A stretch of DNA of 64,000 nucleotides from a virus: the IMG/VR virus record IMGVR_UViG_3300044451_000434, positions 64,001 to 128,000 of that record; one strand, given 5' to 3'. Made by a program: the position numbers and the translations under genes. This document shows positions 31,427-64,000 of this stretch, piece after piece. The notes beneath the pieces were generated by a model. It was given only the letters and a program-made list of their open reading frames with translations. It searched no databases and was not told the DNA's origin. Each line of letters opens with the position of its first letter. The stretch's first letter is position 1.

Positions 31427-34400
31427 TCACTTGAAGACCCGACGCAGTACGTTGCTCTCAGTCTGATCCGCCAACTCCACCTGCTGCTGCAGGCGGAACA
31501 TGGACGCGATCTTGGACTTGAGATCTCCATACGCATTACGCTCACTCTTCTGCTCGGGGATCACAAAAGCCGTTTCTGACCCTGCCGAAGCCGTCTTCAG
31601 GCCCTTGGCGACGACACCCTCTGCGAACATTGCCTTCTCAAGGTCCATGAGCTGAGCCACCTTGTAGCCCATCAACTCCTTGGCTTTTGCAGGAAGATTG
31701 TCTGCAGAGATCATCCCCGCAGCCACCATCTTGCCAGCAACCTTGAGAGCCAACTCGCTGGAATCTTCACCAGCCTTCTTTTTTGCATAGCCGCCAACTG
31801 GACCGGATTTGCCGGAGCCAACTTGGCCGCCTGTCATGAGATTCTGCTTCTCTGCACCGTTCTGACCGCCAACCGGAATGGAAGGCAGGCTCAGACCTGC
31901 AGACTCGTTGCCCTCTGGAACTTCAAGTTCTTCCATGCCCTCAAGACCCTCAGAGGTGCCCACGTCGCCAAGATCTGCCTGGTTCTGCACCAGTTCAGTC
32001 TTGAGACCAAGTTCAGATGCGAGTTTGGCCAAGGAGTCGGAGAATGCTGCCTTCCGATTATCAAGTTTGCTAGAGGCAGACTTTCCTGATCCCTGAACGC
32101 CGCCTGTGGCCATGTTGCCCTTCTCACCCTTGATCTTGTCACCCTTGAAGCTAGGGCCGTCAACGGGAACCTTGGGCATGTCTGCATCGAAGCCGTCGCC
32201 GTGCTCGCTGCTGAGCGGCTTGCCGCCATTCTCAACGACCTTTAGCGACTTCAGACCAGCCTTGCCAGTCATGACGGTGCCAAGTTCTGGCTGCTTCTGT
32301 GCATGACCTATCTCCACAGCCTTCTCTCCCGCCTCCTTGGTAAGGGCAGATGCAAGGCGGGATATGTCAAGTTCCAACTTGCCTACGCCAACGACCCTGC
32401 CACGACGTAGAGCCATAGCCTCCTTCTCAATCTCATAGGATTTGTCTGACTTCGAACTAGCCTCATTTGGAGCAGTCTTTTTCATGACTGCCTCTTTCTC
32501 TTCTTTTTCTCCATCAGAATAATCACGGCCTTCGGCTCCAACCATGTGTGAAACCTCGGCAGGCTCTTCTGCATCCATGTCTTCAGTGTCTTCGGTGTCT
32601 TCAGTGTCTTCAGTGTCTTCAGTGTCTTCGGTGTCTTCAGTGTCTTCAGTGTCTTCAGTGTCTTCAGTGTCTTCAGTGTCTTCAGTGTCTTCAGTGTCTT
32701 CAGTGTCTTCAGTGTCTTCAGACCCATCCATGTCAAAATCATCAGACATCTCTGGCTCCATATCGACTTCCGTGTCCATGTCGACATCGTCTTCACCATG
32801 AGCCTTAGCTAGAGCCTTCTGTATCTGCTCTTCAATCTGCTCAAGAACATCTGGGGTCACGTCGAGGCTGATGGAAACTGTCTTTTGATTGTCATTCTCA
32901 AAACCATCCTCGCCATCGAATGGATCTGATTCTTCCATTTCGTCATCTCCGTGTGATTCTGTTTCGCCATCTTCTTCTGTCAGATCTTCAGCGAGGTATT
33001 CCTCATCCTCAGCATAGGCAGCCTTGATCATCTCACAGGCGCTAGAAGCCTGCTTAATACCCATGCCTTCGCGAACGAGATCCTCAACACATTCGCACAT
33101 GGGATCGGGCTGCGCCCAAGATGAAGCAACTTTGTCAGCCACAGTCGTGCTGTATATGTTTGCACTAGCGAGCTTGCTGCACACGCAATCAGGCAGTGTG
33201 TTTCCACGACAGGGGCCGCTGAGCGCCACAGAATCAGCGCCGTATCTCCTAGCGAGTTTTTCCATGCACTCATTCATTGGGAACTCACCATGCATGGTGA
33301 ATGCCTTCTTGAATGATCCGATGGCGGTGTCTTCTTTAGAGGCTATCTTGACATGTTTTACAGCACCCATGCTCAATGCCTTGTTCAGAACTTCAGCCTT
33401 CTTTACAACAGACATGCTGTCGAATTTTGCACGATCAATTCCCACAGAAGTGAGAGCGTAATTGATCGATGCACGCTTGCGGGCGCAACTGCTGCATGAT
33501 GCCTTCTTGAACTCTGGCACCCACTCCCACTGGGCATACGCGTCCTTGGGAGAAGTGGCTGATGCAGCAAGACGAACCTTGTACATCTGCCCAGAGTCCA
33601 AACACATCCATGTTTCATTGTCGAGCTTAACTGTATTTCTATTTCCAGTGATTGGACTCACAGATCCTAGAGGACCTTTGCTAGCGATCTTCCTGAGTGT
33701 TTCTGGAGTGAGGCGCGTGGATGCAGCAACAGGTGGTAGTCCGGGCGCACCTGCAGGAGGCATGCCGGGCGGCATTTCGGCGCCAATCCCGCCAAGACCC
33801 TTGTCTGGCTCTGCAGGGTTGTCGCCGCTAACATCATCTTGGTCAACATCTCCGTCAGTAATTTTGTCAAGAAGAGATGCGTCTGGAATAACCTTGATTG
33901 TGAATCCACTGCCACAACCTGGACCCTTGCACTGGCTCTTACCGCCAGAAACATCAACATCTTGGTTGCCGCACACGACGCAAACCGCAGCAGGCGGCTT
34001 GGCTTTGCCGGGTTGGTCATACCCAGCATCAAGACCGAGAGGATCCTGAGGAGCTGGAGCAGGAGCTGCTGGCATACCAGCGGGAGCTGCTGGTGCTGGA
34101 GGGGCGCCTGTCAGCGCCTCTGCGCCAGGAATCCCTGGAGGCATAGCGCCAGGAACTGCTGCGCTAGCACCCATGCCTGCCGGGTTGAGAGCGCTAGGCA
34201 TGGCACCTCCAACCTGAGCCTTCTTCTCAAGCCGCTCAATCTCTTCAAGCAATTTCGCACGGCGAGATATCCTTTCCTCGCGGGAATCAAATGAATCAAC
34301 AGAAGTAGTTGCGACATTCGTCTTCAATGACTTATTTTTCATGTTCTCCTCATCGGATGTAAACTTGTGGTATGCATCCTCCTCTTCGGGTGTCAGCATG

Positions 34401-37141
34401 CTTGCCTCTTTGACCACTGCCTCAACGATCCCATTAGCTTCATCAAAATCTATTGACATCGGAACAATATCAACACCAGGGAAACGGTCGGATATCATCC
34501 CTTGGGCAAACTTGGTGACCTCTGCTATGAAGTTGATGCGGTCTGCAGGATCTGAAGAAATGTCCTCGCCAACGGTGCAGCAGACCTTATACATACCATC
34601 TTCAGGACGGAATGCCTGACGCACAGCGTCCTCAAACGAAGCTTCTTTGGCCATAACTTCAGTAGCATCAGAAGCCATCTTTATGGCCTGCTCAACAGCC
34701 AAATCGTTGCTAGCGCAGTGAACAAATGCCCGAATCGCATCTTCGGCGGAAACATTTTTTGCATTATCTGCGATGGAGGCCAAAACGAGGTCGATTGGCT
34801 CAGCCATGAGACCTGCGGAAGCTCCCTTGGTCATCTCGGAGTTTCTTTCGGCAACTTCACGACGCTGAGACACAGTCCAAGGGGCTGCATTTATGGAAAC
34901 CATGAATGCAGCCTTGGCAGATCTTGATGGCTTGCCCGATATGTACTGCGCGACCTTTGAGATGTCAAAAGGATCCAAACCGTATATCGCTATGCCATCG
35001 GCAAGCGCACGAGTTGCGATCTTAACAAGATCAACTGCGCTTGCCTTCTTAGACATCGATCCGAGTTGAGCCTCTGTGGTTGCGGTTGGCTCGATCCACT
35101 TATGATCTTTGCGGAGCATATCGAGCTGGGCAGACTGCACATGGTCTGTCCACTCTGCTGGTATCTTGGCAAAAATCTCGCGGGCTGCATCCTCCCACTG
35201 ACCCTCTGTGATGGTTTCTGGGAAAGAATTCCAGCGGGCCATGAATCCGTTGGATCCGCTAGCAAGCTGCATCTCTGTGGTGCCATCAGGCGATCCAGAC
35301 CTCACCTGCGGTGATGCACTAGAGACATCTGCGAACGCAGGCTTTGATGCGCCAAGACGACTATCTGACTCGATGATCTCAGTGTATTCCGCACCAGTGC
35401 GTGCGCCTATGCCTTTGCCATCAACAAATTGCCCTTCAGTGGTGGTCGGGGGAGAGTTGTCGGTGCGATTTGAAGCTGTTTTAACGGTGCGGTTGTTGGT
35501 ATTCAATTCAGGCTCCTTACTAGAGTTAATGTTTTCTTGTGTTTCGAGGGATGCGAGAATGATGCGAGCTGCGCCTTCGGGATCTTCGGCAATTGCTCTC
35601 CTCAAGTTATGAGGAAATGCATCTGCAGATGATGCTCTGACGACACGCCCGTCAACCACTTCTGTTACGAATGATTCGCCGTCAGAGTCGGCGGATATCA
35701 CAACAGAGCAGTTGGCTGATGCAATTTTTGCAATGATTTGATTCTGTGCCAAAAGATCCTCCGAAGGAAAGTGCTCGCCATCCTCCACGCGGATGGCAAG
35801 TCCTTTGCCTCTATTATTATTTTTTTTCCAAACTTCCTCCCCAAAAGCTGCTCTTGGAATAAAAGTTGGTTTAGTAACCCTACCTATGTCATCACCCACA
35901 TCTTGGAGAGACGGAGTTCCCAAAGAAATCGGCCTTGTGGGGGATTGCTGAGGCACAGACATGGGGGCGACTGCAGTGGGCGCCATTGAAGATGGCGTGG
36001 TTTGTGATATTTTTCCACCATCGACGGGTGATGCGGGGGCAGATGTGCCTTTAGCCATTTGTTCAGAAGATGGAGATGGCAGTTGTGCATAGCCCATTTC
36101 TATAAGTTCGTCTGTGGTTTTTTGCACATTAGACATGACCTTTACAAGATCGCTGACATACTCCATAGAAACTGCCTGTTTTTGTGCCATCATGGACCTA
36201 GCAACACGTTCAAGCAGATTCATTGCCTCATTCAATTCCCCAATCTCTTGTCGACCAGCCACCTTTTCCATTCCACAAACCCCGTCCTTGCAGAATGTTT
36301 CCTCTGCCACCTTGCTGAAACCCTCATTTACGGCTCTAACTTTCTCAACAAGGCTAGCAATCTTTTTGCGAACACCTTCTGGATTCAATATTTCATGAAC
36401 TAGACAATCGTGACATGCTGGGTTGACCACAAAACTGTCTTCTATAAATTTGACTCCGAAATTATGTTCAAAAATCTGTTGATCTTTGTGGATGTGAACT
36501 TTCTTTTCATCCTTTTTGCATCCGCAAACTGGACAGGGTTCTTCACTAGCGTTAGGAGATTCATGATACTTGCAGAGATGTTCGCCATTGAATCGCTTCT
36601 TCTTACGTTCTTTGATGTGTGAGCAAAATTCTTTTGCTGTCGCGGCTCTGTGATGGCATATACTGCAGCATGAATACTGCACCTGACAACCCATCGATGT
36701 GCCATTCACATATCCCTGTTCTATTCCTCTAGCAAGCCTAGGAAAAGCAACGCGATCAACCATATTGATGGTATATATGCCGCCTGCGGCATCGTCGTAC
36801 CATGCATGGACAACCTTGCCCCTTGCCTTCTCAATATCGTCATTTTGGTGGTTGACAAAAACTGGAACCCCGATGAATGTTTTGGCAGCATGTTTCAGTT
36901 CAGTCTCGCTAAACCAGTCACCATTGTCATTAACCTCATCCTTCTTTATAGCAAATACTTTGACAAATAGATGATCAGGGTGCTCCTTAACGGCTGCAGT
37001 TATGTCGAATCCATTCAGATCAACACCAACCTTAGCCGCCTGCTTCTGCAATACATTAGTGTTGAATTCCTCCCAATCCTCAGGTACATTAAGAGCAGTA
37101 ACCTGCCTGACTCCGGAAATGGCAAACTTGTTGGGAATCAT
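31427..37141 (-). CDS. Prohead maturation protease (HK97/herpes assemblin fold) fused to a giant scaffold/internal polyprotein
   Basis: N-terminal VNDNGDWF, VFVNH (His), GTSMGC (Ser), FIEDSFVVNPA. Followed by CxxC clusters, Pro/Gly and acidic low-complexity tracts. Lies between the portal and capsid genes. Confidence 0.85.
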   Translation of the reverse strand: MIPNKFAISGVRQVTALNVPEDWEEFNTNVLQKQAAKVGVDLNGFDITAAVKEHPDHLFVKVFAIKKDEVNDNGDWFSETELKHAAKTFIGVPVFVNHQNDDIEKARGKVVHAWYDDAAGGIYTINMVDRVAFPRLARGIEQGYVNGTSMGCQVQYSCCSICHHRAATAKEFCSHIKERKKKRFNGEHLCKYHESPNASEEPCPVCGCKKDEKKVHIHKDQQIFEHNFGVKFIEDSFVVNPACHDCLVHEILNPEGVRKKIASLVEKVRAVNEGFSKVAEETFCKDGVCGMEKVAGRQEIGELNEAMNLLERVARSMMAQKQAVSMEYVSDLVKVMSNVQKTTDELIEMGYAQLPSPSSEQMAKGTSAPASPVDGGKISQTTPSSMAPTAVAPMSVPQQSPTRPISLGTPSLQDVGDDIGRVTKPTFIPRAAFGEEVWKKNNNRGKGLAIRVEDGEHFPSEDLLAQNQIIAKIASANCSVVISADSDGESFVTEVVDGRVVRASSADAFPHNLRRAIAEDPEGAARIILASLETQENINSSKEPELNTNNRTVKTASNRTDNSPPTTTEGQFVDGKGIGARTGAEYTEIIESDSRLGASKPAFADVSSASPQVRSGSPDGTTEMQLASGSNGFMARWNSFPETITEGQWEDAAREIFAKIPAEWTDHVQSAQLDMLRKDHKWIEPTATTEAQLGSMSKKASAVDLVKIATRALADGIAIYGLDPFDISKVAQYISGKPSRSAKAAFMVSINAAPWTVSQRREVAERNSEMTKGASAGLMAEPIDLVLASIADNAKNVSAEDAIRAFVHCASNDLAVEQAIKMASDATEVMAKEASFEDAVRQAFRPEDGMYKVCCTVGEDISSDPADRINFIAEVTKFAQGMISDRFPGVDIVPMSIDFDEANGIVEAVVKEASMLTPEEEDAYHKFTSDEENMKNKSLKTNVATTSVDSFDSREERISRRAKLLEEIERLEKKAQVGGAMPSALNPAGMGASAAVPGAMPPGIPGAEALTGAPPAPAAPAGMPAAPAPAPQDPLGLDAGYDQPGKAKPPAAVCVVCGNQDVDVSGGKSQCKGPGCGSGFTIKVIPDASLLDKITDGDVDQDDVSGDNPAEPDKGLGGIGAEMPPGMPPAGAPGLPPVAASTRLTPETLRKIASKGPLGSVSPITGNRNTVKLDNETWMCLDSGQMYKVRLAASATSPKDAYAQWEWVPEFKKASCSSCARKRASINYALTSVGIDRAKFDSMSVVKKAEVLNKALSMGAVKHVKIASKEDTAIGSFKKAFTMHGEFPMNECMEKLARRYGADSVALSGPCRGNTLPDCVCSKLASANIYSTTVADKVASSWAQPDPMCECVEDLVREGMGIKQASSACEMIKAAYAEDEEYLAEDLTEEDGETESHGDDEMEESDPFDGEDGFENDNQKTVSISLDVTPDVLEQIEEQIQKALAKAHGEDDVDMDTEVDMEPEMSDDFDMDGSEDTEDTEDTEDTEDTEDTEDTEDTEDTEDTEDTEDTEDTEDTEDTEDMDAEEPAEVSHMVGAEGRDYSDGEKEEKEAVMKKTAPNEASSKSDKSYEIEKEAMALRRGRVVGVGKLELDISRLASALTKEAGEKAVEIGHAQKQPELGTVMTGKAGLKSLKVVENGGKPLSSEHGDGFDADMPKVPVDGPSFKGDKIKGEKGNMATGGVQGSGKSASSKLDNRKAAFSDSLAKLASELGLKTELVQNQADLGDVGTSEGLEGMEELEVPEGNESAGLSLPSIPVGGQNGAEKQNLMTGGQVGSGKSGPVGGYAKKKAGEDSSELALKVAGKMVAAGMISADNLPAKAKELMGYKVAQLMDLEKAMFAEGVVAKGLKTASAGSETAFVIPEQKSERNAYGDLKSKIASMFRLQQQVELADQTESNVLRRVFK
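32579..32720. repeat. 9-bp tandem repeat (GTCTTCAGT) x ~16 encoding (EDT)n
   Basis: Directly visible; two units carry a synonymous A>G change. Confidence 0.97.
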
Positions 37142-39730: not shown

Positions 39731-39757
39731 GAGATAATACCCTGTAGTGGTTTTTCG

Positions 39758-39946
39758 TCATGATGCCTGCACAGCAACAATCTTGGCTATAGATGCACCA
39801 CAGTTAATACAATTGGACGCTGTTGGGTTGTTGCAACCATTACAAACCGGACAATTTTTCTTCCAGCCTGCCATTGGCTTTTTTTTCTTGCCATCACTAA
39901 AAGGGGTCGAAAAGGGGTCAAATGCGGCGGTTTTAGATGCTGTCAA
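39758..39946 (-). CDS. Small zinc-ribbon ORF, possibly a -1 frameshift extension of the upstream gene
   Basis: CPVC...CINC; weak TTG start immediately after A_AAA_AAG. Confidence 0.65.
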   Translation of the reverse strand: MTASKTAAFDPFSTPFSDGKKKKPMAGWKKNCPVCNGCNNPTASNCINCGASIAKIVAVQAS

Positions 39947-40914
39947 CCCTTTTTTTTTGATGCAGAAAAATTAAATGGGGCGAAAGTAACGCGACCATCG
40001 TTGCCCTTCAAATCTCCGCGTGCTGCAGACATCCTGGCTTCAAAAGAACGAAACTCAGGAATAAATGGACGTGAACTGCCATCAGCTGGCACACGCAGAT
40101 CATTACCGACTGGTATAACCTTATTTACCTCAAAACGATCCTCGATGTAACCGCCGCCCGAAAGACCATGATCTCCATCGAAAGGACGATAATACTTGTC
40201 CATCACATTGCCACGCCACAATGTTTCAAAATCTATGTCGTAAATACCACCGAAGAAAAACTGATTGCTTTTGTTACGCTCGAGAGCAGAGAGATTGCTC
40301 TCCACATCTCTTATGATCGGACTTGGTCGAACCTGTGTTGGACCAAAAATAACAGTTTTGTCCATATCACCATGTGAGGCCTGCTTGGTCAAGTTGAAAA
40401 CATTTTCCTTGGAAGCAGTCTTGACTGTTTTAATACTCTTCGCAACCCGCTCCGCAAGGATAGCAATCTGCTCATCTGAAGCTTCCACTACCCTGTCAAC
40501 GGCAGTTGCTGCTTTTTCAATTGCATCCACTGGAACCACAGATGGAGAAATCATATCAGAATATATTAGGAATGCCCTGTCAACAACATCAGCAGAACTT
40601 TCTGAATTTTCATCCTGCTGATAAAAATCTTTAAGAGCCTCTTCAAACATGGAGGCGTTAGGTGATGCGCCGAGACGAGGGGCGAAAAAACCATTCCACA
40701 CCTCATTGTAACCAGATCCAGGCTCGTTTTCCCTTCTGAAACTATTCAGGAAATCAAACATTTCCGTGTGATTTGAGAATGACGGCAACTCCACTTGTTC
40801 CAAGCCCGCAGTCTGTGGGGCAACCGGATTCGTGGCAAGTGGGTATTCAGGTATGAGCGGCTGCTCTACCTCCGTCGTTCTTGTCTGCGCAAATTTGGAA
40901 AGATTGAATTTCAA
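39943..40914 (-). CDS. Hypothetical protein, candidate head protein (323 aa)
   Basis: KFAQ, KTAS, KQAS motifs; lies in the terminase-portal cluster. Confidence 0.75.
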   Translation of the reverse strand: MKFNLSKFAQTRTTEVEQPLIPEYPLATNPVAPQTAGLEQVELPSFSNHTEMFDFLNSFRRENEPGSGYNEVWNGFFAPRLGASPNASMFEEALKDFYQQDENSESSADVVDRAFLIYSDMISPSVVPVDAIEKAATAVDRVVEASDEQIAILAERVAKSIKTVKTASKENVFNLTKQASHGDMDKTVIFGPTQVRPSPIIRDVESNLSALERNKSNQFFFGGIYDIDFETLWRGNVMDKYYRPFDGDHGLSGGGYIEDRFEVNKVIPVGNDLRVPADGSSRPFIPEFRSFEARMSAARGDLKGNDGRVTFAPFNFSASKKKG

Positions 40915-41552
40915 TTGGATTTCTTGCCTTTTAGCGCTTCAAACATTCTTGTTACGGCACCAGCATCAGAAGACGAATATCTTCTTGACGCATGCCTCGA
41001 TGCCAAAGAGTCAAACATGGAAGCAGCCATATCTTTGCTGTTGACTGGAGACTGTGGCTGGGCTTCTTGACGTTCGGCGACAGGCAGAGCAACCACGGGA
41101 GCATCTTTGATGTGGGAGAATGCCTCCTTGTCAAAGATGCTGACAGAGTCTTTGCGAATGAGACCTCTGCCGCCAGATTTGCTAGAAAGAGATGAGACAT
41201 GAGCGGCCATCCGCTCCGCAGAGGTAGGCAAGGGCTCTTCCTCTTTGAAAGCATGCTCCTCAACGCTATCCGCAGCAACCCGTGGAGCAGGTGGATCCTT
41301 GAACCCAAAAAGTGTGTCTGATGCAGCTTTTACTCTAAGACTCCCAATATGACCACCTGCATCAATGGTGTGTGAACCTAAAAGTTTATTGCGAATTAAT
41401 CCGCCCCTAGAAACCTCTGCCTCATGAGTGCCAGCCACCTTGCGGGCAAAACCTTCAAGCCAAGAGGGCCTGTAAGGCTCGTCGGCCAATTTTTCAACCT
41501 TGTCTCCAAAAAGCTCAGACCGACCTTCATTTTGATTCTTGAAAATTCTCAT
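40911..41552 (-). CDS. Hypothetical protein (213 aa)
   Basis: Coupled ORF; KLAD, KVAG, KAAS. Confidence 0.7.
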   Translation of the reverse strand: MRIFKNQNEGRSELFGDKVEKLADEPYRPSWLEGFARKVAGTHEAEVSRGGLIRNKLLGSHTIDAGGHIGSLRVKAASDTLFGFKDPPAPRVAADSVEEHAFKEEEPLPTSAERMAAHVSSLSSKSGGRGLIRKDSVSIFDKEAFSHIKDAPVVALPVAERQEAQPQSPVNSKDMAASMFDSLASRHASRRYSSSDAGAVTRMFEALKGKKSN

Positions 41553-42160
41553 ATTCGGAAACCTGCTTTCTTCAGAGCATCTGCTATGGCAGATTTTCTC
41601 ATCACGAAGGCATCATGATGTGCCGAAGCAGCCTTTGTTGGGGCATCTCCTGCAAGATCTGCAAACGAATCATTTTCAGTCGAAGGCTTGATGGCTTCGG
41701 GCTTTTTGCTGCGGAAATTAACTAAATAGTTCCGCCCCTCATGGCTCATTTCTCCATCCAATCCAAACATTGCACAGATCTGACGGCCAATTTCTGAAGC
41801 CCTAGACTCTGTGATGCGAGACTTTTCAGTCGCCGAAGGTATCATGAAAGACCCACTCAACTGACCTGATCCAATCGAAGATCTCTGCTGAAATATTTTT
41901 CTAGAGATCTTCGGGTCTGTCAAATGCCTTGGCTGAACACCAAGATCTTCTAAGACTGAAAAAACATGCTCCCTCAAAGACATATCCATTCCCCCGTTCG
42001 ATGCAGGCGCCTGATCCTGTGACGGGGCGGATAGAGGAGCTGAACTGCCCGTATCCATATAGACAGACCCTATGTCAGGCTGGGGTATCTGTTCATCTGC
42101 CAACTTGAAAAGTTGGCTCTGCATATGCCTGCGTCGACCTACCGGCAGGAAAGACATCAC
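41549..42160 (-). CDS. Hypothetical protein (203 aa)
   Basis: Coupled ORF; KLAD, KAAS. Confidence 0.7.
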   Translation of the reverse strand: MMSFLPVGRRRHMQSQLFKLADEQIPQPDIGSVYMDTGSSAPLSAPSQDQAPASNGGMDMSLREHVFSVLEDLGVQPRHLTDPKISRKIFQQRSSIGSGQLSGSFMIPSATEKSRITESRASEIGRQICAMFGLDGEMSHEGRNYLVNFRSKKPEAIKPSTENDSFADLAGDAPTKAASAHHDAFVMRKSAIADALKKAGFRI

Positions 42161-42844
42161 TCAGTTCTCCGTGTCAAGAACAGCGTCTATAAATTCCTTG
42201 GGCCAAACATTGGACCAATATGAACGGAACTTGCCCTTCTGCTTTTCAGTGAGATTGGCTATCTTTACAAACTTCGGAGACCTAGACGCAGCCTTCGCTG
42301 ACCAACCGGCCTCCTCGGTCATACCGCTAACTTCTTCAGCATCGTCGGCAGCATAAGATGTGCCGCATGCCTCGCATGAGCCTGACTCCTTTGAGTCATA
42401 GCCACACCCAGTGGCAGAAACAGCACCCATAGCCTCTGCGATTGCCTCGTCAGTAGAGTCGTCTTCAATTTCCACATCGGTATCGCAATCCTCCGCCAAA
42501 ACGAGCAAGACTTCATCGTCATTAACCTTGATCACATCGGCAACCTTGACGGTGTGATACGATTCTGCTTCCTTCTTCTTCTTCTTCTTATATTTGGCGA
42601 GTTGCGGAGAAACCGCGCCCTTCACAGTCTCCTTGCCAACAGATTTTTTTTCCTCATTACCCTCACGCTCCTCGATCTTCTCCCTGATGAAGGCGGGCAA
42701 TTCTTTCTTAGCCTCTTTCTTAAATACTTGGTGCGCATCGACTGCAGATGCCTGCTTTTTCATCCCTCCTGCGACATCCTGTATGATGTCATTAAAACTG
42801 CGGGACGGACCACTAACTGAAATTTTGTTGCTGAAGAACTTCAT
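42161..42844 (-). CDS. Hypothetical charged protein, scaffold/core-like (227 aa)
   Basis: AAGGAG SD; KQAS, KEAK, KVAD, KAAS, KIAN; basic and acidic blocks. Confidence 0.75.
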   Translation of the reverse strand: MKFFSNKISVSGPSRSFNDIIQDVAGGMKKQASAVDAHQVFKKEAKKELPAFIREKIEEREGNEEKKSVGKETVKGAVSPQLAKYKKKKKKEAESYHTVKVADVIKVNDDEVLLVLAEDCDTDVEIEDDSTDEAIAEAMGAVSATGCGYDSKESGSCEACGTSYAADDAEEVSGMTEEAGWSAKAASRSPKFVKIANLTEKQKGKFRSYWSNVWPKEFIDAVLDTEN

Positions 42845-42881: not shown

Positions 42882-43472
42882 TCACATCCCGTCAGGGAGT
42901 GATGTTTTAGTGATTTCCCATGCCTCGTCTCTCAAGCAGGAAGCTGCCACACGCAGCCTGCCTGCAGTCGAAGGATCTTTCGACTGTATATAAGAGGCTA
43001 CTCTGCCCATTTCGTTTGAACATCGAACCATTCTGTCAGGAATAGCCATTGAATGCTCTGCTACAGCTTCAGGAATGGCAATCCCCTTCGGAGTACCAGA
43101 TGCCACCTTCGTCTCAATTATGGTCTGAAGGTTAAAATCTCCACCCATAGGTTCCTTTTCCCATGATTCACCCGAAGACGCATACTTATTCCAAGTCTTA
43201 ACATCACCAGAAATAGCAGACACGTATTCGCTATGACACTCACTCCATGCCTCCTGAGGGCGCATGCCTTGGGCACGCTTGTGTCTAAAACATCCCTGCC
43301 AGCATCTGCTGTTGCGTACAGCAACCCCCTGTATGCCCATATACTGAGCAGTCTTGACCATACATAGATCAGATGCAACCTTGTCAAGCACGACCGCCTG
43401 CGGTTTACTGCCCTTGGCGTCAAGTCCGTTGGCGATGAGAACGATGTCCTTGATGATATCTGATATTTCCAT
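42882..43472 (-). CDS. Hypothetical protein (196 aa)
   Basis: KVAS x2, KTAQ, KYAS; CWQGC...AW.EC motif. Confidence 0.75.
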   Translation of the reverse strand: MEISDIIKDIVLIANGLDAKGSKPQAVVLDKVASDLCMVKTAQYMGIQGVAVRNSRCWQGCFRHKRAQGMRPQEAWSECHSEYVSAISGDVKTWNKYASSGESWEKEPMGGDFNLQTIIETKVASGTPKGIAIPEAVAEHSMAIPDRMVRCSNEMGRVASYIQSKDPSTAGRLRVAASCLRDEAWEITKTSLPDGM

Positions 43473-43476: not shown

Positions 43477-44319
43477 TTAGGTAACTACAAATTTACGAGT
43501 AAATGTCCTGCTTGGGAAAGAAAATCTAACGATTCTATTCAACAAATAATTTCTCGGCTCGCCAACGGTAGTGTCCCACGAAACAACCACCTGCCTGCGA
43601 CTGGCTTGAGAAAAATGCATATCATGTGGTTCAATCTCTCTTGAAATCATTTTGCCACCCTCTGTCAAGTATTCCACAAGCATTGACTGTCTGTTTACTA
43701 CAGACCACCTGACTGCATCGCCAACTCCTGAAAAATTGGGAATTGGAATAGACGTAGAAATCGCAGAATCTGCTCCAGATCTAGCTGGATCTGTGGTTAT
43801 TTCGACCCTATCTACGGGAACCTTGTCTGCCTGAGGCGGCGGGATTGAGGCAGCGATCTCCCCTTCAAAAGGCTGGAAAACCTTTTCTGGATCTACGATT
43901 TCGGGCTTCAAAGATGTTAGGGGCATTTTTTGGGCAATCTTATAACTTCTACTAAATATGCAACAGGGCGGATTTTCCTCTCTGCTGAGATAACACTCAT
44001 CTCCAACCCTAAAACCATTTTTGGAAAGCCAGCCATCAGGCAGTTCAACAGCCAAGTTGCATGGCTCAGAGGCCGCAACAGATGTCAAGTCGTGGGGCTT
44101 TATCCTGCCAACCGTCACAATTTTACCTGAAGGATTTACAAAGACCACGTCCAATGGCAAAAATGTATTCATGCCCCAAAAACTATGTCGATCTGGTCGG
44201 TCAAACACAAAAGCCATACCATGACCGTCTTCCAATTCATGTCTGAACATCAAACCCCTCTCTCTCAGGTGTGGTTTGTCTGCCAACTCAACCACAACTC
44301 TAGAAAACGGGCTATGCAT
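43477..44319 (-). CDS. DUF192-like domain fused to a C-terminal WYL-like domain
   Basis: RGLMFR..L..GHGMAFVF..P...FW.MNT.LPLDVVF...AVELP.GW (DUF192); VEY......REIEP...SWD.....RNY.L.RI (WYL). Likely ATG at 44319. Confidence 0.8.
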   Translation of the reverse strand: MHSPFSRVVVELADKPHLRERGLMFRHELEDGHGMAFVFDRPDRHSFWGMNTFLPLDVVFVNPSGKIVTVGRIKPHDLTSVAASEPCNLAVELPDGWLSKNGFRVGDECYLSREENPPCCIFSRSYKIAQKMPLTSLKPEIVDPEKVFQPFEGEIAASIPPPQADKVPVDRVEITTDPARSGADSAISTSIPIPNFSGVGDAVRWSVVNRQSMLVEYLTEGGKMISREIEPHDMHFSQASRRQVVVSWDTTVGEPRNYLLNRIVRFSFPSRTFTRKFVVT

Positions 44320-44530
44320 ATTCGGAGACAAAGAAGCCCCCACGAACAAGTCGATCAGCGAAGTCCTCGCACTCATTTTCATCATCAAATTCGAGACGAT
44401 ATCCAGATCCATGACGAAAAACATCGGCTCCGGCACCGCGAGCCTGCCTAACCGCTTTATCCAAGTTCCAAGCACGCTCAAAAGATCCTGAGAGTCTAGA
44501 TGGTCTGTCTTTCAGTATTAAAATTCTCAT
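44312..44530 (-). CDS. Hypothetical 72-aa protein
   Basis: ATGA overlap upstream; the stop overlaps the next start by 8 nt. Confidence 0.55.
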   Translation of the reverse strand: MRILILKDRPSRLSGSFERAWNLDKAVRQARGAGADVFRHGSGYRLEFDDENECEDFADRLVRGGFFVSEYA

Positions 44531-56886: not shown

Positions 56887-56908
56887 ATGCATTGTGATGG
56901 AGGATGAC

Positions 56909-57098
56909 CTCTTGCCAGTTTTTACATGCATTAAAATATTTTTGGCAAGAGTGGCAAATACAAGGGGATATTCTATCAACCCCCAAGGGTTATGTAATAA
57001 TCTTAAACCCACATATAAATATAATTTAACTCTACACCGTTGGACCTTCGGTCCAACGGCTGTGGTGCACATCCGGCGTAGCCAGGATGGTGCACCAC
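56909..57098. other. Inverted-repeat cluster in AT-rich DNA (possible origin, terminator or protein-binding sites)
   Basis: CTCTTGCCA/TGGCAAGAG (56909-56951); CCGTTGGACC-TTC-GGTCCAACGG (57037-57059); GTGGTGCAC...GTGCACCAC (57062-57098). Confidence 0.7.
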
Positions 57099-57187
57099 TA
57101 CTTGTTTGGATTTGTATTTTATTGAGTTATTCTCTGTGTAAAGAAGAAATGGACCATTATTTTCTGAACTATGAGTTCAGAAAACAT

Positions 57188-58724: not shown

Positions 58725-58763
58725 AACATATCTATAAATTTATAATATAGAAGGCTTTTTTCC

Positions 58764-59099
58764 ATGATGAAATTGATTTCTGACCATGTTGACATAAAAA
58801 AAAATGCAGCAAAGTACCATGGCAAAGAGGTGCCGCTGAGGAAGATTCTTCCCGGAGATGTGAAGAAATTCAAGGTGTATGTCAAAGATCCATCCTCTGG
58901 AAATATCAAGAAGGTAAATTTCGGTCATGGCGGATCATCTGCGAAGGCTAGGGGTGAAAAGACCCTGTCAATAAAGAGGAACGAGGATGAAAGACAGAAG
59001 AGCTTTCTAGCACGTCACAAGTGCGATACCGCAAAAGATCCCACAACGCCAAGGCATTGGTCATGCAAGGCATGGCATCGTAAAACAAAACTACCCTGA
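58764..59099 (+). CDS. Small basic protein, DUF5754-like
   Basis: KKFKVYVK...KKVNFG......R.KSFLARH.C....TPRHWSCK.W pattern, recalled as common in large phages and viruses. Confidence 0.7.
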   Translation: MMKLISDHVDIKKNAAKYHGKEVPLRKILPGDVKKFKVYVKDPSSGNIKKVNFGHGGSSAKARGEKTLSIKRNEDERQKSFLARHKCDTAKDPTTPRHWSCKAWHRKTKLP

Positions 59100-59109
59100 A
59101 AGGAAAAAT

Positions 59110-60078
59110 ATGGCTCATATTAAAACAGCAAGTGACGGAACACAGAAGATTTCAATGTCCACTGTAGAGTGGATTGATATTGGCCTGAAGCGTGGTCTGC
59201 TCTCTATTGATCCTCGGGCTCCGAGATTCGCTGCAAATCTTGCAAAAAGTGCTGGTCTCCAACCTGGTAAGGCTAGCTATACAACCATCAAGAAAGCCAT
59301 GCAGAATGAAGAGATCATGGCAAAGATAGCAAAAAACCTTGAAAGAAGTGCGCTAATTAAGACTGCTCAACAGGTAGGTGAGAACACAGGAGGCCCAGGT
59401 TGGGGCACCGCTGCCCTTGGAGCCGCAGGTCTCGCTGCTGCTGCGCCACTCGCCTTCCAGGGCGGAAGAGATATGTATAGAAATATTGGTGCAGGTCTTT
59501 CGAGTGCAGGAAATAGTTCAGCACAAACCATGTCTGGTCTTGGTTCTGCATTTGGCCAAGGATTTGGCGGTAACCCTGTCGGTGGCGCTGCCACATCATT
59601 TGGAAATATTGCAAAAGGGGTGGGCAACTTTGCAGCCCGAGCTGCCATGCCAGCTCTCGGTCTTGCTGGCGGTTTTTTGGGCAGCAAGTACCTGATTAAT
59701 CACTTTAAGGACAAATTAGCAGGCGATTCGGCCCCAAGTCCACAACTTATGGCAGACCCCCAAAAACAGAAGTCAGTTATGAGGTCGATATATCATTTCA
59801 ACCAGTTGGCTCCAACAATGAAGGGCATGTCTAGCAGCATTGACAAGCAACTTGACACCATAGCGGCAGCAGTAACCGACACTATTCAGAAAATGCAGGA
59901 GGCGCAGAACACTGTCATGACTCCCACCATTGTAACCCCTGAAGAGCAGAGGGCAAAAGAGATAGCAGATGCTCAAGCAGCTCAGAATGCTGCTCAGGCA
60001 GCATATATGAAATCTATGGCAGGTCCACAGGTTCAGGCCCCCGCTGGTTTGCCATCCGTTACTGCTCCAGCAAGTTAA
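59110..60078 (+). CDS. Gly/Ala-rich candidate internal virion (ejection) protein
   Basis: AAGGA SD; KTAS and KTAQ motifs; glycine-zipper-like hydrophobic segments. Confidence 0.6.
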   Translation: MAHIKTASDGTQKISMSTVEWIDIGLKRGLLSIDPRAPRFAANLAKSAGLQPGKASYTTIKKAMQNEEIMAKIAKNLERSALIKTAQQVGENTGGPGWGTAALGAAGLAAAAPLAFQGGRDMYRNIGAGLSSAGNSSAQTMSGLGSAFGQGFGGNPVGGAATSFGNIAKGVGNFAARAAMPALGLAGGFLGSKYLINHFKDKLAGDSAPSPQLMADPQKQKSVMRSIYHFNQLAPTMKGMSSSIDKQLDTIAAAVTDTIQKMQEAQNTVMTPTIVTPEEQRAKEIADAQAAQNAAQAAYMKSMAGPQVQAPAGLPSVTAPAS

Positions 60079-60100
60079 TCACATTCAGAAAGAACGAAAA

Positions 60101-60736
60101 ATGAGCGACAATAAAATGATCAAAATATCAGATCGTCAGTGGATGGAGGCAGGTATCAAGAAGGGGTATCTTACAAAAGGCCCAGAAGGTATAATGCTGC
60201 GCAAAGAAGCACTAGGATTCTTGCCTGCCCTTGGTATAGGCGCTGCTATACCTGCTGCTTGGGAAGGGGGCAAGTGGCTGTGGAACAAAGCCACAGGCAA
60301 TCGCAGCTTGGGAGAACTTTTTTCCGGATATAGCGTTGATCCCCAGAAATTTCAACAGATCCAAAAAAACTACAAGTTGCTCATGAGGCACCTTGACGAG
60401 TTGTCTACGATGTCTCCGCGTGTGGCGCAAGCGGTCGCGGCAGCAAAAACCGAAATCGCTGCCAAGATGAACGACATGGCACGACAGATTGGGGTTGCAG
60501 GAGGTTCTGCCTCTTTCGGCGGTCAACAACTTGAGGACGAAACCACTGAAGCACATAAGAAACAGCTAGAGGACATAAAGAAGAAGACTCAGATGTATGG
60601 CGCTCTTGGCAAAGGCCCTGGAGGAGAACTTCCAAAAGACTTCAATCCGCAGGCCCCTAGCAAGCCCGCTAGCGGGGCACCCCTTCAATCTGCCACGGCA
60701 GCCGCACCTACTCCACCAAGCACTCCTGGAGCCTAA
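60101..60736 (+). CDS. Candidate internal virion (ejection) protein, N-terminal paralogue of the previous gene
   Basis: KIS..W...G.K.G.L leader, then KEA-LGFLPALGIGAAIPAAW. Confidence 0.6.
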   Translation: MSDNKMIKISDRQWMEAGIKKGYLTKGPEGIMLRKEALGFLPALGIGAAIPAAWEGGKWLWNKATGNRSLGELFSGYSVDPQKFQQIQKNYKLLMRHLDELSTMSPRVAQAVAAAKTEIAAKMNDMARQIGVAGGSASFGGQQLEDETTEAHKKQLEDIKKKTQMYGALGKGPGGELPKDFNPQAPSKPASGAPLQSATAAAPTPPSTPGA

Positions 60737-60741
60737 TCACT

Positions 60742-61221
60742 ATGGATAGGATTGCTCAGTCACCTGCAGCATCCGGCGCCCAGAGGATGAGGGCTCGTGA
60801 CGTTAGCTCTTCCGGCAGCGCCGCCAAGCCTGTGGTTCCCTCGGCAAGAGACATCGCAGCCCAAAATACAAACAGACCTATGGGAGGGGTATCTGTCGCA
60901 GCAGCATCCACAAAACCATCTGTCAGCACCCCGCTTGGCAACAGGGGAACCATCCCCAGCATGACTCAGCGCCAGCAGGAGCAGGTGGCTGCTGCACAAA
61001 CACCCCAGCAGCAGCAGCAGCAGTCATTATGGCAATACAATCCAAAAGCAACTCAGGTCTCCCCTCCGACTAAGGTTGGAGAGGATTTATATGAAACTTG
61101 GACTGGCCCACACCAATATTCAGGTCAGCCAGTTGATATGAAATGGGTACTTTCGCCAGACACAGGTGGACAGTGGCAGCCGACTCAGCAACTCAGATAT
61201 AGCCAATCAGATAGGAGTTAA
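60742..61221 (+). CDS. Low-complexity Gln/Pro/Ala-rich protein
   Basis: In-operon ORF starting MDRIAQ. Confidence 0.6.
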   Translation: MDRIAQSPAASGAQRMRARDVSSSGSAAKPVVPSARDIAAQNTNRPMGGVSVAAASTKPSVSTPLGNRGTIPSMTQRQQEQVAAAQTPQQQQQQSLWQYNPKATQVSPPTKVGEDLYETWTGPHQYSGQPVDMKWVLSPDTGGQWQPTQQLRYSQSDRS

Positions 61222-61222
61222 A

Positions 61223-62164
61223 ATGGATAAAATTTACACAGGTTTTGGCCCGCTTACCACTTTAACAAATCCCAAAGAGGCAAGCATGACCCTCAACATG
61301 TTTAAGGATATTGCACGCTCAAAGCAGGCACAGTCTATCAATCAGATTGCCACTGAACAACAGAATGAGATCACGGCCGAAGAAGCAAGGAAACGGGTTG
61401 ATAACAAAGAAATATATATGATAAATATCGCTGGATTGCACTACCGACTTCTTGATCCTGAAAGAAAGAAAAAGGTACTCAATCATTTCATAAATGAAAT
61501 ATCAACTGGTCGCTCGGCTGAGAAAAATATTGAATATGCGTTCAGAAATAGTAATATTATCCTTCCTTTGTCGATGGCAGAAAAGAAAGCGATGGCTCTC
61601 GCAATACTCAAAGGTGAGTTGGTCAATATCCAGTCTACCCCCAAACAGCCTGCAGAACAGCCTAGAGATCAGCAGCAGCCCAAGGCTCAGGAAGCTCCAT
61701 CAGCAGGTTCGGCTAACGCAGACAGTTCAAGACAATCACCAGTCGCTGTAGATAACAATGCAGGCAGTAAGGTAGACACTAAGCAGACTCAGCAGACTGC
61801 TGCAGGTGGAGAGTCAAAAAATAAAACCCCTAGTCAGGGAAGCGGTTTTGGTGCTGGACTTCTGTCTCTCGTCGGGCAGGGTCTAGTAGCCGTTATTGAT
61901 GCAATCAAAAAGTTGCCGTCTGCGCCCAAAGTTTCCGATCAGGTTCTTGCTCAAATGATTGTAGCAGATCAGCCGCAATATTGGTTCCCGAACAACGCGG
62001 TGTCAGAAACTGGTTTTTATGGACCGTTTATCCGTGGACAGAACATTTTCTGGGCAGAAATAGAGTATAACGGTGAAGCCGAACAATTCATGTACAGTGG
62101 TAGATATGCATCGGTTCCTGTTGTGGCATCTCAGGCAGTTAAGGAATCTGCTCGGGGCACCTAA
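61223..62164 (+). CDS. Hypothetical protein (~313 aa)
   Basis: ATG at 61223 with AGGAG SD; KEAS, KQAQ; hydrophobic GFGAGLLSLVGQGLVAVI segment. Confidence 0.7.
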   Translation: MDKIYTGFGPLTTLTNPKEASMTLNMFKDIARSKQAQSINQIATEQQNEITAEEARKRVDNKEIYMINIAGLHYRLLDPERKKKVLNHFINEISTGRSAEKNIEYAFRNSNIILPLSMAEKKAMALAILKGELVNIQSTPKQPAEQPRDQQQPKAQEAPSAGSANADSSRQSPVAVDNNAGSKVDTKQTQQTAAGGESKNKTPSQGSGFGAGLLSLVGQGLVAVIDAIKKLPSAPKVSDQVLAQMIVADQPQYWFPNNAVSETGFYGPFIRGQNIFWAEIEYNGEAEQFMYSGRYASVPVVASQAVKESARGT

Positions 62165-62178
62165 AAATATTCTACTCT

Positions 62179-62214
62179 AAAAAAGGGGGCTGTCCACTAG
62201 GCTGCCACTTTTTT
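62179..62214. terminator. Possible bidirectional terminator between convergent genes
   Basis: A6-G...GGC.GTC-loop-GGC.GCC...C-T6; imperfect stem. Confidence 0.4.
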
Positions 62215-62227
62215 CTTATGATTTCGC

Positions 62228-62377
62228 TTATTTGCTCTGTTTCTTCACATAATTAACACAACGTTCGTATTTCTTTTTGTCATCTCTGCCGACAGATACT
62301 GTGCAAATAGCCCACGGATTGGGGTCATATTCTTTTTTATTCTTTTTGGCCAGCTTATGCCAATTGCCGTCATTCAT
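62228..62377 (-). CDS. 49-aa protein with an NPWAIC...YERCV motif (below the ORF-track cutoff)
   Basis: Translated by hand: MNDGNWHKLAKKNKKEYDPNPWAICTVSVGRDDKKKYERCVNYVKKQSK*; ATGA overlap with the upstream gene. Confidence 0.75.
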   Translation of the reverse strand: MNDGNWHKLAKKNKKEYDPNPWAICTVSVGRDDKKKYERCVNYVKKQSK

Positions 62378-63006
62378 CGCCTTGTCCTTGGTCTCGACCG
62401 GTTTTTTCTAGCCATTGCTATTGCTGCTTCTGATTGTGCTGCTATTGCTGCTTTTGCTTCTGCTGCTTTTTGCTTCCGTGCTGCTGCTTCTTCTTGCTTC
62501 TGTCTGTCAGCGTTGTTTTTGATATTGATATTATTTATGACCATTTTTGTGTACGGTTCAACAAGATCACCATTTGTGTTATACTGATAGATGTACTCCC
62601 TTACCCTATCTGAATACATTTCAATTGTTTCACCACGCTGCATTTTTGGTACGCTTTTTAAAAAAGCATCTCTTGTAGCAACATAGTCCTCGGCACTCAT
62701 TTGTGAAAGGACGGCCTCATCTCCCTCAAGTATTGCCATGATCTGTTCTTGGACACCGATCCTGCCACTCTCTCTAGAAATTGTGTAAGCTTCGCCTTGC
62801 TTTTTCCACAAATGTTTCCACTCTGCTTTCAGTTGCTCTATCTGTTGCTGTCTCTGTTGTTCAAGTTGTGGATCTTTATTTTGGGGCTGATTATTAAGAT
62901 TATTCAACTGTCTAGAAATCTCATTCATTCTATAAGATATGTCAACGATTGTAGCATTCCCCTGATGTCCATGTTGTGCTGTCTTTGAAATGTTATATAT
63001 ACCCAT
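62374..63006 (-). CDS. Coiled-coil hypothetical protein (~210 aa)
   Basis: Likely ATG at 63006 (MGIYNISKTAQ). Confidence 0.65.
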   Translation of the reverse strand: MGIYNISKTAQHGHQGNATIVDISYRMNEISRQLNNLNNQPQNKDPQLEQQRQQQIEQLKAEWKHLWKKQGEAYTISRESGRIGVQEQIMAILEGDEAVLSQMSAEDYVATRDAFLKSVPKMQRGETIEMYSDRVREYIYQYNTNGDLVEPYTKMVINNINIKNNADRQKQEEAAARKQKAAEAKAAIAAQSEAAIAMARKNRSRPRTRR

Positions 63007-63050
63007 ACAAGGTATTTTGCATGCAATGGTCGAAAAACCTCTAGGATAAC

Positions 63051-63551
63051 ATGTCAAAAGACAAAGATGATACATTGACAGAAACGGGTATGCAGATTGC
63101 CGAAGACGCCATTATTCATATTTCAGCGGGACTTGATGAATTCAACCACAACCCTCTCCCCTCAAAAATTACAAATGATATAAGTGTTAATCTTGCTCTA
63201 CATGGTCCCGACGGTACAGACTATGACAGAAGTTGGTTGTCATCACTGATAAAAAATATTATTGAAGAAATTGAACAATCAATAACAATGACGTATATCA
63301 GGCTTGAAAAACCCGCAAGGTTCTTTGGAAAAATGCATTTCAGAAAATCTTGTCCTGAAGTCAAAGACATGAATGTAAAGAATGATTACCAATCCCAAAG
63401 GCGGGCAACTCCTAGTGAGATAGCATCATTGGTTCAGATCTTAAATATAATTAAAATAAAAGATTTTGTCTATAATGTTAGAAATTGTTGTATGTCCGTT
63501 GATAGGGCATGCAGGCAACTAGAATTGGCTGTTGAAAGATTTTCTCGATGA
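63051..63551 (+). CDS. Hypothetical protein (166 aa)
   Basis: AGGA SD; divergent from the previous gene. Confidence 0.6.
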   Translation: MSKDKDDTLTETGMQIAEDAIIHISAGLDEFNHNPLPSKITNDISVNLALHGPDGTDYDRSWLSSLIKNIIEEIEQSITMTYIRLEKPARFFGKMHFRKSCPEVKDMNVKNDYQSQRRATPSEIASLVQILNIIKIKDFVYNVRNCCMSVDRACRQLELAVERFSR

Positions 63552-64000
63552 AAGAAATCATATCGAAATCATATTCAGAAAAGAAAGCATCTCTCGGCGA
63601 ATCAATGTCTCGTGGTTTTGACATGTTCTCAAGGATGACAAACCATCCTTTGTGGAGGAGTTTTTGGAGAGGAACCCACTTGGACGCAAAGTCTGGTATG
63701 CTTGGGCAGGGGCTGAAAGCCCTTGAAATATATGGGGTGACAGACAGGGAGGGTCGAGAGTTAGCCTCGGCCACTAGAGACATGGTTTCTCTTATCGATG
63801 CCACTGAACCAGAATGCTTCAAGATACCAGATTCTCTGAAAGATGTGCTTGAGAAAATGAACTCCAATACGTCATCTATAATTAAAGATTATAAAAATAA
63901 ATCTAAACGGTGGAGAAATTGGTGTAATGAGAATTTTGATTTTGGTCCATTCTCCTCTGCGTACAATAGATACATAAAAAAACACACCAATGAAATCGGC
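63548..64000 (+). CDS. Partial hypothetical protein (runs off the window end)
   Basis: ATGA overlap at 63548; open for 151 codons, MKEIISKSYSEKKASLG... Confidence 0.65.
   Translation, partial: MKEIISKSYSEKKASLGESMSRGFDMFSRMTNHPLWRSFWRGTHLDAKSGMLGQGLKALEIYGVTDREGRELASATRDMVSLIDATEPECFKIPDSLKDVLEKMNSNTSSIIKDYKNKSKRWRNWCNENFDFGPFSSAYNRYIKKHTNEIG

What the first reader, a model, noticed from the sequence alone, without database searches (positions are those of the whole stretch)
31427..64000. Proteome-wide K-x-A-(S/Q/G/A) motif: candidate prohead-protease maturation code defining a head-internal proteome
Seen: the 1904-aa protease polyprotein has about 40 K-x-A and about 19 K-x-A-S by eye (KIAS x5, KTAS x2, KEAS x2, KKAS x2, KLAS x2, KVAS, KQAS and others); composition alone would predict only a few KxAS. 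The motif recurs near N-termini or domain junctions of otherwise unrelated proteins: portal (LTKAAQ, LSKTAAS), 39943 (LSKFAQ, VKTAS, LTKQAS), 42161, 42882 (LDKVAS, MVKTAQ, WNKYAS), 43477 (YKIAQ), 44871, 46731 (LIKSAS, IKEAQ), 58764 (KKNAA), 59110 (IKTAS, LIKTAQ), 60101, 61223, 62228, 62374 (ISKTAQ), 63548 (EKKAS) and 20158. KxAS was not noticed in the tube, terminase, PhoH, actin or capsid proteins. Established: T4 gp21 and phiKZ gp175 cut many head proteins at short Glu-ending motifs, and herpesvirus assemblin (same fold as the HK97 protease) cuts Ala|Ser bonds (e.g. YVKA|S). Inference: this phage uses a herpes-like K-x-A|S specificity to process about 20 packaged proteins, so the motif predicts which hypothetical proteins are in the head.
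Basis: partly seen in the sequence, partly recalled or inferred. Interest (0 to 1): 0.85.

Follow-up and report, generated by a model that had tools for sequence, protein, structure and literature searches.

The report
Lys-x-Ala cut signal in phage heads
In this uncultured lake jumbo phage related to phage G, a short signal (Lys, any residue, Ala, then usually Ser or Gln) is concentrated and conserved in the head-assembly proteins, and most likely marks where the phage's own capsid protease cuts, a specificity I found no report of for phages, though no cut has been measured.

Summary
The motif is real but confined to the head module, not proteome-wide. The 1904-aa ORF has 19 KxAS (1.25 expected). 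KxA[SQ] is enriched 8.5-fold in 11 neighbouring head ORFs and 3.7-fold in a plus-strand cluster, but not in tail proteins, enzymes, terminase or capsid protein; eight related contigs repeat this. At several sites Lys and Ala are kept while x and the flanks vary. The N-terminal domain has the T4 gp21/herpes assemblin fold with an invariant His-Ser-Glu set, and a K-x-A follows it in all 11 proteases of its clade examined, including cultured phage G, Bxz1, E3 and Tunturi_5. A conserved internal ribosome-binding site and start at residue 546 gives a nested scaffold-like product, as in herpes UL26/UL26.5. Best reading: cut sites of this protease, after Ala (about 0.65). Cleavage is inferred only, and many sites lie in predicted helices. 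A single hit does not predict head location: 12 of 39 tail-side ORFs carry one. About 7-9 substrates are supported, not 20; ORF 20158 lacks the motif. This scan noted the same motif before in many other genomes; no paper was found.

The parts
31427..37141 (-). 1904-aa prohead protease-scaffold/core polyprotein; 44 KxA, 19 KxAS
   Evidence: 173 long homologues
36368..37033 (-). Protease domain, residues about 37-258, T4 gp21/assemblin fold with Cys/His (probable zinc) inserts; invariant H98 (36848-36850), S149 (36695-36697), E234 (36440-36442)
37034..37045 (-). K33-x-A35 site in front of the protease domain (K 98%, x 2%, A 100% kept in 97 distant homologues)
36353..36364 (-). K260-x-A262 site just after the protease domain (candidate release site); matching K-x-A in phage G gp19, Bxz1 gp95, E3 gp77, Tunturi_5 gp331
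35504..35518 (-). Internal Shine-Dalgarno AAGGAG, 6 nt spacer, in-frame TTG at residue 546; ATG with strong SD at the same place in relatives
31427..35506 (-). Predicted nested 1359-aa scaffold/core protein made from the internal start
   Evidence: inferred
35471..35482 (-). K554-x-A556: N-terminal tag of the nested product; K and A about 85% kept where flanks are 9% conserved
35060..35446 (-). Four [IT]-T-E-x-Q repeats, a second conserved motif of unknown role
34817..34828 (-). K772-x-A site in a low-confidence loop
34214..34225 (-). K973-x-A-Q at a helix end before a long disordered Gly/Pro linker
33338..33349 (-). K1265-x-A-S in a loop; K and A invariant, x 6% kept
33122..33133 (-). K1337-x-A-S, highly conserved but inside a confidently predicted helix
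37520..39730 (-). Portal with C-terminal DUF559-like nuclease domain; leader site K30 (39632-39643, kept 25/30) and tail site K699 (37625-37636, 21/35); K80 and K656 lie inside recognised domains and are probably structural
39943..40914 (-). Head-cluster ORF; K7 kept 25/29, K177 kept 31/31
41549..42160 (-). Head-cluster ORF; K19 kept 8/11, K176 kept 9/11
42161..42844 (-). Head-cluster ORF; K30 kept 19/19, K194 kept 18/19
42882..43472 (-). Head-cluster ORF, 5 KxA[SQ] vs 0.18; K40 and K96 kept 14/14
43477..44481 (-). DUF192 + WYL protein; K181-x-A-Q lies between the two domains, kept 11/16
46731..47423 (-). ORF next to terminase with an N-terminal K-x-A-S (kept 2/3; similar leaders in three related contigs)
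58764..64000 (.). Cluster of small lineage-specific ORFs with N-terminal [KR]-x-A-[SQ] tags (59110, 60742, 61223, 62374, 63548; weaker 58764, 60101, 62228): candidate cargo, only one close relative available
29857..30726 (-). Major capsid protein, about 51% identical to phage G gp27 (PDB 6WKK); no propeptide and no motif
30790..31374 (-). Probable decoration protein (by position, as phage G gp26); no motif
   Evidence: inference from synteny

Best explanation
K-x-A-(S/Q, sometimes G/A) is the recognition site of the phage's prohead serine protease, read as P3 Lys, P2 free (often Val/Thr/Ile/Leu), P1 Ala, cut, small or polar P1'. One gene makes a protease-scaffold precursor and, from an internal start at residue 546, a protease-free scaffold/core protein. 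After prohead assembly the protease trims itself (K33, K260), cuts the scaffold/core into pieces (median 43 residues if all 29 sites are cut) and trims leaders or tails from the portal and about 6-8 neighbouring internal head proteins; short N-terminal tags ending in K-x-A on unrelated small proteins may also be cut. Shown by computation: enrichment, confinement to the head module, conservation, fold, invariant catalytic residues, conserved internal SD and start. Inferred: protease activity, cleavage, register, use of the internal start, virion location of substrates.
For: Enrichment 13x in the polyprotein and 8.5x in 11 head-cluster ORFs, none in tail or enzymes; same split in eight related contigs: head cluster 80 vs 15.2, polyprotein 106 vs 13.4, terminase 0 vs 2.4, capsid/decoration 0 vs 1.3, tails 12 vs 14.1 and 23 vs 17.5. 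K and A kept with free x and diverged flanks. K..A excess only at spacing 2 (2.5x; spacings 3, 4, 7 about 1.0; reverse order 1.1), so not helix periodicity. Fold matches VZV assemblin (Z 10.5, rmsd 2.5, 114 aligned) and T4 gp21 (Z 10.1, rmsd 2.9, 128 aligned); H98, S149, E234 invariant in 107 sequences. K-x-A follows the protease domain in all 11 members of its clade examined. Same motif shape as the measured SPN3US site: fixed P3 and P1, free P2, Ser preferred at P1' (PMC10052503); Ala|Ser/Thr cutting and an R-site after the protease in assemblin (PMC4498786). Scaffolds of the sister clade keep Ala-small and change the first residue (V/T in RSL1 and Saruman, E in GR11A; corrected p 0.005-0.03), which favours Ala as P1.
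Against: No cleavage has been measured for any member in papers I could reach. In the model of residues 690-1400 more than half of the 22 KxA lie in confident helices, including conserved ones (K707, K743, K877, K1295, K1337); K83-x-A sits inside the protease fold. P1' also takes Gln, Tyr and Phe. Some tags put the basic residue at position 3-5, leaving very little to remove. The K-x-A label arises once on the tree, so this is shared descent, not repeated co-evolution. The contig is about 39% complete, so another protease is not excluded.
Confidence: 0.65

Rival explanations
1. The motif is a docking or capsid-targeting signal (binding the scaffold core, portal or coat) and is mostly not cut.
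For: Enriched at N-termini: 27 vs 10.5 in the first 29 residues of 799 ORFs of relatives, 6 vs 1.5 outside the head cluster here; very short tags such as MNWYK-x-AQ on unrelated ORFs; many sites in helices. T4 internal proteins use a 10-20 residue targeting leader (PMC5694885).
Against: Sites bracket the protease domain even where it is a separate gene (phage G gp19, Tunturi_5 gp331); about 29 copies along the scaffold fit T4-like scaffold fragmentation. T4's leader ends in the cut site, so targeting and cutting can coexist.
Confidence: 0.17
2. It is a cut site of this protease but the bond is Lys|x, as in HK97 (Lys|Ser; own knowledge), with x-A-S on the primed side.
For: Third catalytic residue is Glu and the weak Pfam hits are to S78 families; Lys is as well kept as Ala.
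Against: x is mostly Val/Thr/Ile/Leu, unlike the small P1' of SPN3US and assemblin sites; sister-clade scaffolds keep Ala-small and lose Lys.
Confidence: 0.07
3. Another protease (phage-encoded elsewhere, or host) reads the motif.
For: Contig about 39% complete; phage G also encodes ClpP/ClpX and other proteases (PMC12484599); an earlier scan note proposed a cysteine protease for KVAS linkers in another genome (untested here).
Against: The motif is densest in the protease's own gene and flanks its domain; no second copy of this protease and no ClpP in the contig held.
Confidence: 0.06
4. A structural habit (helix caps or packing) of related helical head proteins with no signalling role.
For: Many sites in confident helices; portal K80 and K656 lie in folded domains.
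Against: Strict i+2 spacing and direction; conservation in disordered linkers with 9% flank identity; presence in unrelated folds and at extreme N-termini.
Confidence: 0.05

Closest known systems
T4 gp21 (MEROPS S77) and phiKZ gp175 / SPN3US gp245 prohead proteases
   Same: Fold (5JBL, Z 10.1); His-Ser-acid catalytic set; short P3-x-P1 motif repeated in scaffold, portal and internal proteins; self-trimming (PMC5694885, PMC10052503).
   Different: They cut after Glu (I/L-x-E, A-x-E); here the enriched motif is K-x-A. Their proteases are separate genes and they process the capsid protein, which here has no propeptide or motif.
Herpesvirus assemblin UL26/UL26.5 (MEROPS S21)
   Same: Fold (1VZV, Z 10.5); protease fused to scaffold, nested in-frame scaffold start, site after the protease domain, Ala followed by Ser/Thr (PMC4498786).
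   Different: Assemblin uses Ser-His-His and an Arg-Arg oxyanion loop; here Glu234 and no Arg pair. Herpes sites have a hydrophobic P3 and only two main sites; here Lys at P3 and about 20-30 sites.
Phage G gp19 / Bxz1 gp95 / Rhodococcus E3 gp77 / Tunturi_5 gp331 head maturation proteases
   Same: Direct homologues, same module order, K/R-x-A enrichment in linked head genes (G gp7 8 vs 1.5; Tunturi gp332 8 vs 1.7, gp328 12 vs 2.2).
   Different: Protease is a separate gene in G and Tunturi_5, and a shorter fusion in Bxz1/E3; no cleavage site published in papers held.
Lambda C/Nu3 and Mu I/Z nested protease/scaffold genes (own knowledge)
   Same: Internal in-frame start giving a protease-free scaffold.
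   Different: Much shorter scaffolds; lambda C is a ClpP-like (S49) protease.
T4 capsid-targeting sequence (CTS)
   Same: Short N-terminal leader ending in the protease motif on unrelated small proteins.
   Different: The leaders here are shorter and less uniform; targeting is untested.

Membership tests
Clan SH prohead proteases (T4 gp21, HK97 gp4, phiKZ gp175) | Assemblin-type beta-barrel fold | tested here: met
   Model pLDDT 81.7; best matches 1VZV Z 10.5 and 5JBL Z 10.1, well above unrelated rows
Clan SH prohead proteases (T4 gp21, HK97 gp4, phiKZ gp175) | His, Ser and acidic catalytic residues in that order | tested here: met
   H98, S149, E234 invariant in 107 sequences and aligned in 16 distant proteases; roles assigned by analogy
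Clan SH prohead proteases (T4 gp21, HK97 gp4, phiKZ gp175) | Gene between portal and major capsid genes | tested here: met
Clan SH prohead proteases (T4 gp21, HK97 gp4, phiKZ gp175) | Proteolytic activity on head proteins | not testable with these tools
   needs biochemistry or virion proteomics
Pfam Peptidase_S78 (HK97 type) | Score over the curated cut-off | tested here: not met
   No hit for the protein; only sub-threshold hits in homologues, S78_2 in 55 and S78 in 13 of 107; PHROG 18299 head maturation protease E 2.6e-14
T4/phiKZ Glu-specific proteases | Substrates enriched in a P3-x-Glu motif | tested here: not met
   Top pattern in polyprotein and head ORFs is KxAS/KxAQ; no x-x-E cut-type motif ranks near it
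Herpes assemblin (S21) | Ser-His-His triad | tested here: not met
   Third position is Glu234
Herpes assemblin (S21) | Two consecutive Arg in the oxyanion loop | tested here: not met
   The matching stretch reads V-V-N-P-A-C
Herpes assemblin (S21) | Nested in-frame scaffold gene | tested here: met
   Strong SD plus start at the same place in 27 of 27 sequences; mean dG -6.8 vs -2.1 control; translation not shown
Herpes assemblin (S21) | Cleavage between Ala and Ser/Thr at R and M sites | not testable with these tools
   A K-x-A follows the domain in the whole clade, but the cut is not shown
T4 capsid-targeting sequence | Shared short N-terminal leader ending in the protease motif | tested here: inconclusive
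   N-terminal excess 27 vs 10.5; leaders vary in length and sequence
T4 capsid-targeting sequence | Leader suffices to package a passenger protein | not testable with these tools
   needs fusion experiments

The most novel reading that the evidence does not exclude
The phage G/Bxz1/RSL1 protease family cuts after Ala with a lineage-specific P3 residue (Lys here, Val/Thr or Glu in sister lineages), and very short N-terminal leaders ending in K-x-A act as a portable load-and-cut tag that puts unrelated, fast-changing proteins into the head, so injected cargo of uncultured jumbo phages could be read from sequence.
Probability: 0.3. Interest if true: 0.75.

Novelty: new variant of a known kind. 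Interest (0 to 1): 0.58.

Why it matters
Multi-substrate head processing has been mapped only for Glu-cutting T4 and phiKZ-type phages. An Ala-cutting, Lys-anchored specificity with a nested protease/scaffold gene would be the closest phage counterpart to herpesvirus UL26/UL26.5 maturation and would cover a large lineage (2041 representative proteins at E<=1e-10), including cultured phage G, Bxz1 and Tunturi_5, where existing or cheap virion proteomics can test it. It gives a ranked list of probable internal head proteins among hypothetical ORFs, and bears on CBASS sensors that are switched on by prohead-protease cleavage at specific motifs (PMC12991175).

Tried and rejected
Co-folding the protease domain with the K554 segment gave no verdict (0.31, mark 0.32) and is not used either way. 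Fold searches of residues 690-1400 in BFVD and PDB found no match at E<=0.001, nor did an Atlas feature search of 546-975 or profile searches of body segments against phage G, Bxz1 and E3 proteins; these blanks show nothing about novelty. No RNA holder was listed. The phage G structure/proteomics paper (PMC7316594) is not held; PMC12484599, PMC5646251, PMC7150772, PMC7412058 and the Matilda preprint gave no mapped cut sites; a search for K-x-A with maturation protease found no paper. Rejected: DNA-level repeat (codons vary); helix periodicity; composition alone (shuffles 0/2000); 'proteome-wide'; tape-measure-like 9660 as substrate (sites not conserved); 44871 and 40911 sites are not kept in distant orthologues (2/12, 0/6). 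Only three close relatives of 59110 were found, so the plus-strand cluster could not be tested by deep conservation. My first ORF selection took a wrong frame near 57188-58724; the later call (73) corrects it and the class counts are not affected.

Full report
Setting. The window is part of a 164-kb phage contig, about 39% complete, held in lake-water metagenomes. Its capsid protein is about 51% identical to phage G gp27; homologues of the 1904-aa ORF lie on contigs up to 498 kb. Order on the minus strand: terminase (47426), about ten hypothetical ORFs, portal (37520), the 1904-aa ORF, decoration, capsid.

Observation. The 1904-aa ORF has 44 KxA (15.7 expected), 19 KxAS (1.25) and 29 KxA[SQGA] (4.8). 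KxAS ranks first among all gapped patterns tested, and first again in the other head ORFs taken alone. By class, KxA[SQ] is 23 vs 1.8 in the polyprotein, 19 vs 2.2 in 11 head-cluster ORFs, 8 vs 2.1 in the cluster at 58764-64578 (p 0.002, but chosen after the fact), 7 vs 3.8 and 10 vs 7.8 in tail regions, 1 vs 1.6 in enzymes and 0 in capsid, decoration, terminase and ORF 20158. Eight related contigs give the same split. So the signal belongs to the head module and is not proteome-wide. A single hit is a poor predictor: 12 of 39 tail-side ORFs have one (8.9 expected), against 10 of 13 in the head cluster (2.8 expected).

Shape and conservation. In 120 homologues KxAS averages 9.3 per protein against 1.2; the context is (Leu/Arg/Met)-x-Lys-(Val/Thr/Ile/Leu)-Ala-(Ser/Tyr/Gln/Phe), with Pro and Gly disfavoured at x. 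In 97 distant homologues Lys and Ala are kept while x varies at K33, K260, K554, K772, K973, K1265 and K1337; at K554 the flanks are 9% conserved. Other copies, including several KxAS, are lineage-specific. Orthologues keep sites in the portal (K30, K699), 39943, 41549, 42161, 42882 and 43477, where the site separates a DUF192 from a WYL domain. The excess is specific to Lys two residues before Ala (2.5x), not to helical spacings or the reverse order, and codons vary. KxA[SQ] is also in excess near N-termini (27 vs 10.5 in relatives; 6 vs 1.5 here outside the head cluster), often as short leaders on unrelated ORFs.

The protease. Residues 37-258 fold like VZV assemblin and T4 gp21. H98, S149 and E234 are invariant. 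The third residue is acidic as in T4-type enzymes (PMC5694885), not His, and the herpes Arg-Arg loop (PMC4498786) is absent, so it is a phage clan-SH protease, not an assemblin. Its cultured relatives are phage G gp19, Bxz1 gp95, E3 gp77 and, more distantly, Tunturi_5 gp331. In a tree of 16 domains, the 11 members of this clade (support 100/99) all carry K-x-A just after the domain; the RSL1/Saruman/Motura/PaBG/Y3 clade does not. That is one change on the tree and so shows shared descent only. Scaffolds of the sister clade are modestly enriched in V/T-x-A-small or E-x-A-S instead, while Y3 shows none; if these are their cut sites, Ala is the constant residue.

Nested start. Residue 546 is a TTG six bases after AAGGAG; 93% of homologues have Met within four residues. 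All 27 non-redundant sequences checked have a strong SD plus start there, more than at any other position (next best 15), although AAGGAG is the rarest of the four Lys-Glu codon pairs. E3 gp77 has a similar internal start. The predicted 1359-aa product begins with a short leader ending in K554-x-A. This mirrors herpes UL26/UL26.5. Its body is not a plain coil: residues 690-940 and about 1050-1390 form confident, mostly helical domains joined by disordered linkers.

Mechanism. Most likely the protease reads P3 Lys, P1 Ala and cuts after Ala, freeing itself, fragmenting the scaffold/core and trimming the portal and several internal proteins, as T4 gp21 does with its Glu motif. The measured SPN3US motif has the same layout, with Ser preferred at P1'. 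Against: no cut is measured; more than half of the sites in the modelled segment lie in helices, some well conserved, so only a subset may be cut, or cutting follows unfolding; and the shortest leaders suit a docking role as well. I put cleavage after Ala by this protease at 0.65, docking without cutting at 0.17, cutting after Lys at 0.07, another protease at 0.06, structure only at 0.05.

Novelty. Multi-site head processing and nested protease/scaffold genes are known kinds. A Lys-x-Ala specificity was not found in the papers I could search. The scan has noted the same motif in many other genomes and, once by eye, the nested start; these notes are leads, not support. Verdict: new variant of a known kind, interest 0.58.

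Noticed in passing
window 35060-35446 (-): Four [IT]-T-E-x-Q-[LFW] repeats right after the nested start; up to six copies and often the top motif in distant homologues. Could be a coat- or core-binding repeat.
   Followed up: partly
window 59110, 60101; genome 139806-140243: Unrelated small ORFs share an N-terminal module K-[IL]-S-x3-W-x2-x-G-x3-G-[aromatic/Leu], followed by a K-x-A-like site; a second candidate leader.
   Followed up: partly
window 37520-39730 (-): Portal carries a C-terminal DUF559/Vsr-like nuclease domain after a Gly/Pro linker, with no K-x-A between portal core and nuclease.
   Followed up: partly
homologues P0018, P0019, P0021, P0081, P0114 and others: Many homologues carry inteins in the protease domain just after the catalytic Ser motif; this one has none.
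   Followed up: no
window 32579-32725 (-): Sixteen-fold Glu-Asp-Thr tandem repeat in an acidic stretch of the polyprotein.
   Followed up: no
window 43477-44481 (-): DUF192 + WYL fusion inside the head module, conserved in about 20 relatives.
   Followed up: partly
L119:17256-18749, L118:22927-24555, L125:5426-7132, L124:8834-10909: Scaffold-position genes of GR11A, RSL1, BcepSaruman and Y3 carry their own repeated short motifs (E-x-A-S; V/T-x-A-A; S-E-S-S/G), some annotated 'ATPase' in databases.
   Followed up: partly
L120:18848-21331: Tunturi_5 gp328, annotated DNA ejection protein, has 12 KxA[ASG] vs 2.2 expected, while its tail proteins have almost none.
   Followed up: partly
genome 9095-73634: Run of very large Ser-rich ORFs (up to 4092 aa), probably tail or baseplate; not annotated here.
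   Followed up: no
genome 141715, 145873, 147940: Further ORFs outside the window with N-terminal K-x-A leaders; 147940 resembles window ORF 60101.
   Followed up: no
window 57188-58060 (-): AAA/ABC-type ATPase (AAA_21, SMC_N hits) next to the tagged cluster.
   Followed up: no
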